A stretch of DNA of 64,000 nt, taken from the NCBI GenBank assembly GCA_009914755.4, contig CP086569.2:48416001-48480000 (forward strand), read 5' to 3'. Shown here one piece after another: positions 2,793 to 5,210 of this stretch. A program made the translations under genes and the position numbers. Source of the stretch: the human T2T-CHM13v2.0 reference genome, Homo sapiens. Below the pieces are notes generated by a model, which searched no databases, had not been told where the DNA came from, and saw only the letters and a program-made list of their open reading frames with translations. How positions within the stretch are numbered: the first letter of the stretch is position 1; every line of letters begins with the position of its first letter.

Positions 2793-3090
2793 TTTTTTTT
2801 TAGACAGAGTCTTGTCCTGTTGCACAGGGTGGAGTACAATGGCGCCATCTTTGCTCACTGCAACATCTGCCTCACTGGTCCAAGCGATTGTCCTCCCTCA
2901 GCCTCCCAAGTAGCTGGGACTACACCACACTGAGACTACAGCAGCTGCCACCATGCCTAGCTAATTTTATGGATTTTTAGTAGTGACAGCGTTTCACTGT
3001 ATTGGCCAGGATAGTCTTGATCTCTTCACCTTGTGATCCCCTTGCCTTGGCCTCCAAATTTGCTGGGATTACAGGCCTGAGCCAAGATCC
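2793..3090 (-). mobile_element. Alu (AluS/J-like), antisense, unit copy 2; subtype A
   Basis: Same Alu as 374-671 at a +2419 offset. Private variants 'cctcactggtcc', 'cccaagtagc', 'cactgagactacagcagc', 'ttttatggattt', 'ggatagtcttg'. Confidence 0.93.
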
Positions 3091-3296
3091 ATATTTTTTA
3101 AATGAAAAAAAATTTCAAAGGTACTCTGCTTGGTACAATAATCAAATGTATAAACTGAGGAATAAAACATCACCATGAAACCTACTTATAACTGTATACG
3201 GAAAATACAGAGGATAATTTTTTAAATAACATATTTTGAAAGCCTTAACTAGTAATTTGAAGAGTTGGCATTTGAAAGGCCAGTATGAATATACCT

Positions 3297-3482
3297 TCAA
3301 AGCAGCAACACAGGTTCCCCATGAGAAAAAGCAAACTCAGGGAAAATAAAACCACAAAGGTTCAATCTCTTCTGACCTTTGAAAGACACAGCACAGACTG
3401 TGGTCCTTAGGACGAAGAGCAGGAGACCCCTAATTCCGTCACCATGGCGATAGGGCATAAACATTGCTGGGTGAGGGCACAA
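3297..3482 (-). other. Representative copy of the repeat-borne 61-codon ORF (27 intact copies). Probably non-coding
   Basis: ORF track: MCPHPAMFMPYRHGDGIRGLLLFVLRTTVCAVSFKGQKRLNLCGFIFPEFAFSHGEPVLLL. Recurs once per unit only because the units are 97-100% identical. No family resemblance I can recognise. Every change the ORF track shows between copies alters an amino acid (G/V, E/V, R/H, E/D, P/T, V/A, M/K, C/F ...); silent changes would not appear in that track, so this argues against coding only weakly. Confidence 0.1.
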
Positions 3483-3653
3483 TCCACATTGTGAGGTCCA
3501 ACTGCTGCCAGGAAGACAGGAGTGCTTTTACATAGACCGAAAGGTCATTGAAGGCTCAGAGTTTTGTTTCAAGAACTGAATCCCAAGCCCACACGTTATT
3601 AGGCTGCGCTTCTTAAAACAAGTTATGAGATGGGAAAAATGGCACCCACAAAC

Positions 3654-5210
3654 ATACGTATACATTATGTATATAATAATATACAGTATCATATATATAA
3701 TATATTTAAACTATGTATAATATTGTTTTACATCCTGCATCTTATATTATATATATTGTATAAAATATAATAATTGATAATATATAAGTTTTATATTTAT
3801 ACAATATGACATATAGTATATATTATAATTTATGACATATATAATATATGTTATATATCATATATAGAATATATTATACGGTTAATATACGTATTAAATA
3901 TAAATTAAACATTATATATATTATATATAATATATCTGTTATATATAATACCCATTATGCATAATATATATATTATGTCTACGTTATATATAGTATAAAA
4001 CAACATATAATAATATATAATTGTATATATAAAATGCGACATATAATATATATTATATTTTATGACATATGTAATATATATTATATATTATATATAATAC
4101 ATTGTATGTATAATACCTATATTAAATATATATTATATGACTATGTTATTAATTACATGTCACATGTGTTATATATTATATATTTTACATAGAATATACC
4201 GGTTACATAAAATATATAGTATGTTACCTATAATGTATAATTTATTACATGTAAAATAAAGAATGCAATATATTATGTATAATTTATAATATACAATATG
4301 TGGAATGTCATATATATAACATATAATATATGATATATGATATACAGTATATGATATATAACATACAATATATGATACCTAATATATATGGTATGCAATA
4401 TATATTTTATGATATGTATTCTATATGTTTTATATTCTGTTATATATAACTATTTGAAATTACATATAACTGTATAATATTTTATGTAAATATGTAATAT
4501 AATATATATAACTATATAATATATTATATATAACTATATATTATGTTATATATACTTTTATAACATAATTTACATAAAATATCATAATATAATGTATATT
4601 ATATTATTTCATATTACATAATATATATTACATATCACCCAATATATGTAACATACATAATATTATAATATAGATTATATTATGTTATATTAAATATCAT
4701 ATATATCATGTATCATATATTCTATAATATATATTACACATAATATAATATGTATGTTGTCTATTATGCGATATATATAACTATATATATAATTATATTA
4801 TTATACATATAACTAGATAAACATGTAATTCTACATATTTTCATTTATAATATATAGAATTATATAATCATATATAATTATTTATATTCTATAAAAAATT
4901 ATATCATTATATAAATTATAATATATAAAAATTATAATATGTACTACAAATATATATATTATATATCATATATGATATAGTACCTTTGTTATATATCATA
5001 ATACATATAAATGTGTATTAAGTTATCTATAATTATATAATTTCATATATAAGATGTATAATATGTATCATATATTATATATGTTATGTAATATATATAG
5101 TATATATAAGATGACACAGGATAAATATTATATAATATGACATAAAATATATGACGTTATATGTTACATATAAGGCATAGCACATAACATGTAATATATA
5201 TCATATATAA
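3654..5210. repeat. AT-rich low-complexity block, unit 2
   Basis: Homologous to 1235-2792 at one-unit offset. Confidence 0.8.

What the first reader, a model, noticed from the sequence alone, without database searches (positions are those of the whole stretch)
2793..5210. Composite unit architecture: antisense AluS/J, then a roughly 560 bp complex segment, then a roughly 1.56 kb AT-rich block. The Alu was captured before amplification
Every unit contains the same Alu insertion, with identical 5' truncation, an identical internal duplication ('gggactacaccacactgggactacacc') and shared CpG-decay sites. A single ancestral Alu insertion was therefore amplified along with its flanks; 27 independent insertions are excluded. 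This bounds the array's birth to after AluS/J activity (catarrhine or anthropoid lineage). Inter-unit divergence of about 0-3% is far lower than the Alu's roughly 15% divergence from consensus, so amplification or homogenisation is much younger than the insertion.
Basis: partly seen in the sequence, partly recalled or inferred. Interest (0 to 1): 0.6.

Follow-up and report, generated by a model that had tools for sequence, protein, structure and literature searches.

The report
Human DYZ2 (HSat1B) satellite array

Summary
The 64 kb window holds 26 full units and two partial units of a repeat 2,413-2,422 bp long (consensus 2,420 bp). Units differ by 0-3.2%.

All 27 Alu copies share these features:
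- The same 5' truncation, at about Alu position 13.
- The same 15 bp internal duplication.
- 41 fixed differences from the Alu consensus.
- The same decay products at 19 of 22 CpG sites.

So one Alu was amplified together with its flanks.

The repeat is human HSat1B/DYZ2, most likely from Yq12, less likely from an acrocentric short arm. The evidence:
- The unit length and three-part composition match published figures: Alu about 290 bp, 'HSATI' about 566 bp, and an AT-rich repeat.
- GC content is 24.6% and there is one CpG per 143 bp.
- The 'ACATACG' junction motif is present.
- A published 40-nt probe target, taken from the 1984 unit sequence, occurs in every unit.
- Seventeen human-contaminant contigs in bacterial assemblies are 94.2-99.9% identical to the unit consensus; 12 of them are at least 99.3% identical.

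The Alu is an AluSc-like intermediate between AluS and AluY, not AluJ. It is 17-18.5% diverged from consensus.

The array is non-coding. It carries traces of unequal exchange and gene conversion: two unit classes, mosaic units and a 9.68 kb four-unit duplication. The feature is already known, so interest is low.

The parts
1..64000 (.). Tandem array of the 2.42 kb HSat1B/DYZ2 unit. It has 26 complete units (374-63275), a partial AT-rich block at the left end (1-373), and a partial unit (Alu plus part of the complex segment) at the right end (63276-64000). The array runs off both ends of the window.
   Evidence: 27 anchors spaced 2,413-2,422 bp apart. Pairwise identity is 96.8-100%. Consensus is 2,420 bp.
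2793..3085 (-). 5'-truncated, AluSc-like Alu of unit U02, antisense on the + strand. The A-tail reads as T9 at 2793-2801. The truncated head, at about Alu position 13, abuts the complex segment.
   Evidence: Local alignment to Alu consensus positions 13-287. Sub-threshold Rfam hit to the Alu-derived family mir-1268 at 2897-2963 on the minus strand.
2916..2942 (-). Internal 15-bp duplication inside the right Alu monomer. The sense strand reads TGTAGTCCCAG TGTGG TGTAGTCCCAG. This unit carries a 2-substitution variant of the common motif.
   Evidence: A 15-column insertion relative to all four Alu consensus sequences in all 27 copies. The motif is exact in 21 copies and within 2 substitutions in the other 6. 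The Rfam alignment shows a 20-nt loop against 5 nt in the model.
3060..3099 (+). Junction between the Alu head and the complex segment. It equals the 40-nt target of the published 'Y-chrom' padlock probe, which was designed on the 1984 2.47 kb male-specific satellite I unit. A DraI site follows it.
   Evidence: Probe arms from PMC2212658 Table 1. The target is found in all 27 units: 13 exact, 13 with 1 mismatch and 1 with 2 mismatches, against 0 expected by chance.
3086..3658 (.). Complex, moderately GC-rich segment (the 'HSATI' part of the unit), 573 bp. It ends in the heptamer ACATACG at 3652-3658.
   Evidence: 39% GC and 7 CpG in the consensus. The published HSATI part has a mean of 566 bp, and ACATACG marks the HSATI/AT-rich junction. 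Only ORFs of 61 aa or less, with no Pfam match.
3659..5210 (.). AT-rich block, 86% AT and 1,552 bp. It is made of degenerate short-period repeats (periods 7, 16, 22 and 44) and holds an internal duplication of about 230 bp.
   Evidence: TRF rows for 3659-5108, including period 230 x 1.9 copies at 3750-4180. GC is 13.7%.
39075..58434 (.). Recent tandem duplication of a four-unit (9,680 bp) block. Units U17-U20 (39075-48754) are repeated as U21-U24 (48755-58434).
   Evidence: U17/U21, U18/U22 and U19/U23 differ by about 0.0%, and U20/U24 by 0.8%. The longest exact run at lag 9,680 is 3,568 bp. Variant patterns are identical.

Best explanation
The window is a stretch of the human satellite HSat1B, classically called DYZ2. 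It most probably comes from the Yq12 heterochromatin of the Y chromosome. Its 2,420 bp unit is a composite of three parts: a 5'-truncated AluSc-like Alu, a roughly 570 bp non-repetitive 'HSATI' segment, and a roughly 1.55 kb AT-rich degenerate simple repeat.

One ancestral copy of this three-part sequence, already containing the Alu, was amplified in tandem. The Alu is a passive passenger. The array is non-coding heterochromatin.

The array is kept homogeneous, and keeps changing, through unequal sister-chromatid exchange, tandem duplication of multi-unit blocks and gene conversion. That is why units differ from each other by only 0-3%, while their shared Alu is about 17-18.5% from its subfamily consensus.

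Shown here:
- The anatomy of the unit.
- The single origin of the Alu.
- Sequence-level identity with the published unit.
- The human origin of the sequence.
- The footprints of exchange and conversion.

Inferred: the chromosome (Y rather than acrocentric) and the molecular mechanism of amplification. The confidence given (0.93) is for the identification as HSat1B/DYZ2 with a single-origin Alu; the Y assignment alone is about 0.75-0.8.
For: Anatomy and single origin.

Match to published DYZ2/HSat1B descriptions:
- Consensus of 2,420 bp, Alu 290 +/- 2 bp, HSATI 566 +/- 16 bp, a 5'-truncated Alu with its head next to HSATI, and 'ACATACG' at the HSATI/AT junction (Hallast et al.).
- 24% GC and one CpG per 150 bp (Hallast et al.).

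Measured here: consensus 2,420 bp, Alu 293 bp, complex segment 570-573 bp, ACATACG at consensus position 860 and present 24 times, GC 24.6%, one CpG per 143 bp.

Sequence-level tie: the 40-nt target of a padlock probe designed on the Frommer 1984 male-specific 2.47 kb unit occurs in all 27 units, with 0 expected by chance.

Independent human copies: 17 short contaminant contigs in bacterial assemblies contain the Alu/HSATI junction. They are 94.2-99.9% identical to the window's unit consensus. One contig of 2,497 bp has 3 mismatches. Rhie et al. report exactly this kind of HSat1B contamination.

Exchange footprints: two unit classes, mosaic units and a four-unit duplication. Hallast et al. infer unequal sister-chromatid exchange for DYZ2.

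Non-coding.

Favouring the Y:
- T2T-Y holds 14 Mb of it.
- Most Y units are over 98% identical to their consensus, as they are here.
- Acrocentric HSat1B shows lower identity in allelic alignments, much of it below 95%.
Against: No human reference assembly could be searched, so the chromosomal location is not shown. Only 10 of 26 units are exactly 2,420 bp, against 93.7% reported for Yq12. Half of the units are about 1.8% from consensus. Both fit a peripheral Yq12 array or array edge, but they also fit an acrocentric array. No DYZ1 flank lies in the window.
Confidence: 0.93

Rival explanations
1. This is the same satellite (HSat1B), but the window comes from an acrocentric short arm (chr13, 14, 15, 21 or 22) rather than from Yq12.
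For: HSat1B arrays exist on the acrocentric short arms. Only 10 of 26 units are exactly 2,420 bp. Eleven units are about 1.8% from consensus, each with 13-34 private differences. The older Yq12 units resemble the acrocentric copies.
Against: By amount of sequence, HSat1B lies almost entirely on the Y. The window's consensus is within 0.1-0.7% of most contaminant contigs, and these should reflect the most abundant (Y) variant. Much of the acrocentric HSat1B shows below 95% identity in allelic alignments, whereas units here are at least 96.8% alike.
Confidence: 0.2
2. The Alu was not part of the founding unit. It inserted into one unit of an already existing array of AT-rich plus HSATI sequence, and that unit then replaced the others by unequal exchange.
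For: The window alone cannot tell the two orders of events apart. Both give the same Alu in every unit. Younger AluY insertions inside DYZ2 units have spread to as many as 17 copies in this way.
Against: All described copies carry the Alu, including the Y, acrocentric and low-copy 22q11 copies of the three-part repeat. No Alu-free unit occurs among the 27 here, and none is reported. No clear target-site duplication flanks the Alu.
Confidence: 0.1
3. The element was inserted independently many times into a preferred site (27 separate Alu insertions).
For: None found.
Against: All 27 copies have an identical truncation point, identical flanks, an identical 15-bp internal duplication, 41 fixed substitutions and the same CpG decay products.
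Confidence: 0

Closest known systems
DYZ2 / HSat1B (Repbase 'HSATI' composite; Frommer, Prosser & Vincent 1984; Babcock et al. 2007; Rhie et al. 2023; Hallast et al. 2023)
   Same: The features that match:
- Unit length, with a 2,420 bp consensus.
- Order and size of the three parts.
- A 5'-truncated Alu with its head next to HSATI.
- The ACATACG junction.
- GC and CpG content.
- A 40-nt published probe target in every unit.
- Units at least 98% identical to independent human copies for most units.
- A pattern of homogenised units lying next to more diverged ones.
   Different: Nothing essential differs. The Alu scores slightly better as AluSc (as in Babcock 2007) than as AluY (the label used in the T2T-Y paper). 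Fewer units than reported for Yq12 are exactly 2,420 bp.
DYZ1 (HSat3A6), the other Yq12 satellite
   Same: A kilobase-scale tandem unit in the same heterochromatin, evolving by unequal exchange.
   Different: DYZ1 is a unit of about 3.5-3.6 kb derived from the CATTC pentamer, with 38% GC and no Alu subunit. No such sequence is in the window.
HSat1A (42-bp 'SAR' satellite)
   Same: Very AT-rich, and isolated in the same classical satellite I fraction.
   Different: HSat1A is a simple 42-bp repeat with no Alu or HSATI segment, and is described as a distinct family. The unit here is 2.42 kb and composite.
Composite satellites built from transposable-element fragments (T2T-CHM13 'composite satellites')
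   Same: A transposable-element fragment is a fixed part of the repeating unit.
   Different: Here the Alu is only 12% of the unit. The rest is not recognisably derived from transposable elements with the tools available.

Membership tests
HSat1B / DYZ2 | Tandem repeat with a unit of about 2.4 kb (published consensus 2,420 bp) | tested here: met
   Spacings of 2,413-2,422 bp and a majority consensus of 2,420 bp. Published value.
HSat1B / DYZ2 | Three-part unit: one 5'-truncated Alu (about 290 bp), an HSATI segment (about 566 bp) and an AT-rich repeat (over 85% AT) | tested here: met
   Alu 293 bp, complex segment 570-573 bp, AT-rich block 1,552-1,554 bp at 86% AT. Published values.
HSat1B / DYZ2 | Sequence identity with the published unit | tested here: met
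   The 40-nt padlock target from the Frommer 1984 unit is in all 27 units. ACATACG sits at the HSATI/AT junction. The full published consensus was not available, so identity over the whole unit was checked only against contaminant contigs.
HSat1B / DYZ2 | Base composition of about 24% GC and about one CpG per 150 bp | tested here: met
   24.6% GC and one CpG per 143 bp.
HSat1B / DYZ2 | A male-specific HaeIII fragment of about 2.1 kb (classical definition, recalled from memory: Cooke 1976) | tested here: met
   A virtual HaeIII digest gives 23 fragments of 2,139-2,148 bp plus small fragments. The defining value rests on my memory, not on a paper read here.
HSat1B / DYZ2 | Location in Yq12, in blocks alternating with DYZ1 (or, in small amounts, on acrocentric short arms) | not testable with these tools
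   No human reference could be searched, and the window holds no array edge or DYZ1 sequence.
Alu (7SL-derived primate SINE) | Dimeric structure with a middle A-rich linker and a 3' A-tail, alignable to the Alu consensus | tested here: met
Rfam hit to the Alu-derived mir-1268 family, E=1e-4, below the gathering score.
Alu (7SL-derived primate SINE) | Target-site duplication flanking the insertion | tested here: inconclusive
   By eye there is only a weak ATATG(G)AT resemblance on the two sides, in AT-rich sequence. No chance control was run. The flanks are identical in all 27 copies.
AluSc subfamily (versus AluY, AluSx, AluJ) | Subfamily diagnostic positions | tested here: inconclusive
   Best score and lowest divergence are to AluSc (16.7%), then AluSx (18.2%), AluY (18.5%) and AluJo (22.2%). 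The left monomer carries the states shared by Sc and Y: the 2-bp deletion, GAGATC and CCATCC. The right monomer carries the S states: AATCGCTTG and GTTGCAG. The consensus sequences are from memory. The literature is split between AluSc and AluY.
AluJ subfamily | AluJ diagnostic positions and closest consensus | tested here: not met
   AluJo is the worst match, at 22.2% divergence and the lowest score.

The most novel reading that the evidence does not exclude
The DYZ2 Alu may be an AluSc-type S-to-Y intermediate rather than an AluY. Its divergence of about 17-20% is roughly twice what I recall as typical for that subfamily. The excess could reflect the roughly tenfold higher mutation and conversion rate reported for Yq12 and acrocentric heterochromatin. 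If so, the AluY-from-PAR1 seeding scenario in the T2T-Y paper would need revisiting. The embedded Alu could then serve as an internal clock for satellite mutation rates.
Probability: 0.3. Interest if true: 0.25.

Novelty: already known. Interest (0 to 1): 0.08.

Why it matters
This result mainly serves as a sanity check. A reader working from raw sequence correctly reconstructed the anatomy and the single-origin logic of a classic human satellite. DYZ2/HSat1B makes up about 14 Mb of the Y chromosome, varies greatly between men and is a known contaminant of microbial assemblies. None of this is new. Two points carry some residual value: the disagreement over subfamily (AluSc against AluY), and the local picture of homogenisation (two unit classes, mosaic units, a four-unit duplication), which illustrates how such arrays turn over.

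Tried and rejected
- **Coding potential.** Only ORFs of 61 aa or less occur in a unit. Pfam gave no match except one at E=0.064, below its cutoff. Rejected.
- **Structured RNA.** Rfam gave only sub-threshold hits to the Alu-derived mir-1268 family (36.9 and 27.5 bits against a gathering score of 83). These reflect the Alu, not a miRNA gene.
- **Palindromic, hairpin-prone structure in the AT-rich block**, the link to the 22q11 palindromic AT-rich repeats. Many imperfect inverted repeats of 70-78% complementarity were found. The best near-palindrome (4485-4635) folds no better than shuffles (z = -1.77; 13 of 200 shuffles fold as well). No evidence beyond base composition.
- **Full text of Frommer 1984 (PMC318713) and Babcock 2007 (PMC1832092).** Neither is held in the library. 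Their content was taken second-hand.
- **Twenty-seven independent Alu insertions.** Rejected.
- **Non-human origin.** Judged unlikely, because contaminant contigs in bacterial assemblies, presumably human, differ from the unit consensus by as little as 0.12%.

Full report
**Observation**

A 30-nt anchor taken from the start of the Alu-like stretch recurs 27 times in the window. The spacings are 2,413-2,422 bp. The window therefore holds 26 complete units (374-63275) plus partial units at both ends, and the array runs off both edges.

A MAFFT alignment of the 26 units gives pairwise divergence of 0-3.2%, mean 1.9%, and a majority consensus of 2,420 bp.

The composition profile alternates with the same period. 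The unit divides into three parts:
- An antisense Alu with its T-tail: consensus positions 1-296, 50% GC.
- A complex segment: positions 297-866, 570 bp, 39% GC.
- An AT-rich block: positions 867-2420, 1,554 bp, 13.7% GC.

**The Alu copies**

I aligned all 27 copies, reverse-complemented into the sense orientation, with AluJo, AluSx, AluSc and AluY consensus sequences. They are not a tool result, so figures derived from them are approximate.

Every copy shows the following:
- It begins at about consensus position 13, with the same upstream flank (TTTAAAAA[A/G]TATGGATC).
- It carries the same 15-bp internal duplication in the right monomer.
- It ends in the same A9 tail.

The quoted 27-mer is exact in 21 copies. 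It differs by 1-2 substitutions in six copies, including the copy at the stated coordinates.

Over Alu positions 13-280:
- 182 positions are unchanged in all copies.
- 41 positions differ from AluSc in the same way in all 27 copies.
- 45 positions are polymorphic among copies.
- Of 22 consensus CpGs, 19 are decayed to the same product in all or nearly all copies, and three are retained.
- Mean pairwise divergence among the Alu copies is 1.92%.

The unit-consensus Alu is 16.7% from AluSc, 18.2% from AluSx, 18.5% from AluY and 22.2% from AluJo, counting substitutions only.

One ancestral insertion was therefore amplified with its flanks. Amplification or homogenisation is far younger than the insertion. 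AluJ can be dropped.

**Subfamily**

The left monomer has the states shared by AluSc and AluY: the 2-bp deletion, GAGATC and CCATCC. It also has GTGAAGAG, which matches the A that I recall in AluSc 'GTCAAGAG'.

The right monomer keeps the AluS states: AATCGCTTG and GTTGCAG. GTAGTCCC and the six-A linker are Y-like or Sc-like.

This is an S-to-Y intermediate, best called AluSc-like. The literature is split:
- Babcock et al. 2007 call it AluSc (as summarised in PMC7767330).
- The T2T-Y paper calls it an ancient AluY, 20% diverged.
- Hallast et al. say it is mostly called AluY but is too diverged to exclude AluS.

**Identity of the repeat**

Published descriptions of DYZ2/HSat1B fit point by point.

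From Rhie et al. [quoted passage not shown] Most units are over 98% identical.

From Hallast et al.:
- A final consensus of 2,420 bp.
- A single-origin Alu of 290 +/- 2 bp.
- An HSATI part of 566 +/- 16 bp.
- An Alu head lying next to HSATI.
- The heptamer ACATACG at the HSATI/AT-rich junction.
- 24% GC and one CpG per 150 bp.

Measured here:
- Consensus of 2,420 bp.
- Alu of 293 bp.
- Complex segment of 570-573 bp.
- ACATACG at consensus position 860, present 24 times in the window.
- 24.6% GC and one CpG per 143 bp.

A virtual HaeIII digest gives 23 fragments of 2.14-2.15 kb. This matches the classical 2.1 kb male-specific HaeIII band, a value I recall from memory.

For a sequence-level tie I used the 'Y-chrom' padlock probe of PMC2212658. 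It was designed on the 2.47 kb male-specific satellite I unit of Frommer et al. 1984. Its two arms define a 40-nt target that spans the Alu-head/HSATI junction. That target occurs in all 27 units: 13 exact, 13 with one mismatch and 1 with two mismatches. None is expected by chance.

**Independent copies and species**

I scanned the bacterial and archaeal genome collection with a 23-nt junction pattern. It returned 17 short contigs (312-2,497 bp) from unrelated 'bacterial' assemblies. This is the HSat1B contamination that Rhie et al. describe.

The contigs are 94.2-99.9% identical to the window's unit consensus, and 12 of the 17 are at least 99.3% identical. The longest, LZSC01000004.1 (2,497 bp, more than one full unit), has three mismatches.

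Individual window units are 97.5-99.6% identical to the three longest contigs. The window is therefore human, and its consensus is essentially the common human HSat1B consensus.

**Chromosome**

This is inferred, not shown. Three points favour the Y:
- Smaller arrays lie on the acrocentric short arms, where much of the HSat1B shows below 95% identity in allelic alignments.
- The window's closeness to the common consensus fits the abundant Y variant.

Two points leave the question open. Only 10 of 26 units are exactly 2,420 bp, against 93.7% reported for Yq12. Eleven units are about 1.8% from consensus. Both fit a peripheral block or an array edge, which Hallast et al. describe as more diverged. 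An acrocentric array is not excluded. I put about 0.75-0.8 on the Y.

**How it works**

The unit has no coding potential: only ORFs of 61 aa or less, and no Pfam match. It has no Rfam family apart from sub-threshold Alu-derived mir-1268 hits.

The array carries footprints of turnover. Thirty-four informative sites sort the units into two classes:
- An older class: U1-U7 and U10-U13, with 13-34 private differences each. U3 and U10-U13 form a subgroup within it.
- A homogenised class: U8, U9 and U14-U26. U15-U26 have 0-8 private differences each; U8, U9 and the mosaic U14 have 13, 7 and 17.

U8 and U9 are embedded among older units. U10, U13 and U14 are mosaics of the two classes.

Units U17-U20 are repeated as U21-U24. 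Three of the four pairs are essentially identical, and there is a 3,568-bp exact run at a lag of 9,680 bp.

These are the expected products of unequal sister-chromatid exchange, block duplication and gene conversion. That is the mechanism already inferred for DYZ2. The mechanism itself remains an inference.

The Alu's divergence is high for an AluSc-type or AluY-type element, as far as I recall the typical values. This may reflect the roughly tenfold higher de novo mutation rate reported for Yq12 and the acrocentric short arms. I did not test this.

**Order of events**

From the window alone, 'Alu captured before amplification' cannot be separated from 'Alu inserted into an early array and swept to fixation'. 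Younger AluY insertions in DYZ2 units have spread to up to 17 copies in the second way.

I found no clear target-site duplication.

**What led nowhere**
- The AT-rich block has many imperfect inverted repeats. The best near-palindrome folds no better than shuffled sequence (z = -1.77).
- The original 1984 and 2007 papers are not held in the library.
- No paper in the library held an Alu consensus string.

**Verdict**

The feature is the long-known DYZ2/HSat1B satellite. Novelty: already known. Interest: low.

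Noticed in passing
window 39075-58434: A four-unit block of 9,680 bp is tandemly duplicated: U17-U20 is repeated as U21-U24. Three of the four unit pairs are essentially identical, and there is a 3,568-bp exact run at lag 9,680. This is a local higher-order period produced by a recent unequal exchange.
   Followed up: yes
window 374-63275 (units U1-U26): There are two unit classes. The older, diverged class is U1-U7 and U10-U13, with 13-34 private differences per unit. 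The homogenised class is U8, U9 and U14-U26; U15-U26 have 0-8 private differences each, while U8, U9 and U14 have 13, 7 and 17. U8 and U9 sit inside the older stretch. U10, U13 and U14 are mosaics, which suggests gene-conversion or exchange breakpoints.
   Followed up: partly
L001-L017 (e.g. L001 = LZSC01000004.1, Mycobacterium sp., 2,497 bp): Seventeen species-representative 'bacterial' genome assemblies contain short contigs that are human HSat1B, 94.2-99.9% identical to the unit consensus. This is human contamination of public microbial assemblies, as Rhie et al. reported. Four of the contigs (L002, L014, L015, L016) are 94-98% identical and may come from diverged, possibly acrocentric, copies.
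   Followed up: partly
window 2897-2963 (-) and 5315-5381 (-): Sub-threshold Rfam hits to mir-1268 (36.9 and 27.5 bits against a gathering score of 83). This family is Alu-derived, and the hit lies across the duplicated part of the right Alu monomer. It is not a miRNA gene.
   Followed up: yes
window 3750-4180, 8587-9017, 13422-13852: TRF reports an internal duplication of about 230 bp (1.9 copies, 75-77% matches) inside the AT-rich block. It is listed only for some units among the rows shown. The AT-rich block also shows periods of 22 and 44 bp. I did not test whether it is distantly related to the 42-bp HSat1A repeat.
   Followed up: no
window 3094 and the homologous position in each unit: A T/C variant inside the published padlock-probe target (CCATATTTTTT against CCATACTTTTT) splits the units. 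The C form is in 12 units, all in the homogenised part of the array apart from U10. A ligation-based probe would therefore miss nearly half of the units here.
   Followed up: partly
Alu positions 195, 205 and 237 in all 27 copies (e.g. window 2793-3085): Three of 22 Alu CpG sites are retained in 26 of 27 copies, while the other 19 are decayed. Retention in a hypermethylated satellite may be chance or may reflect homogenisation. It is unexplained.
   Followed up: no
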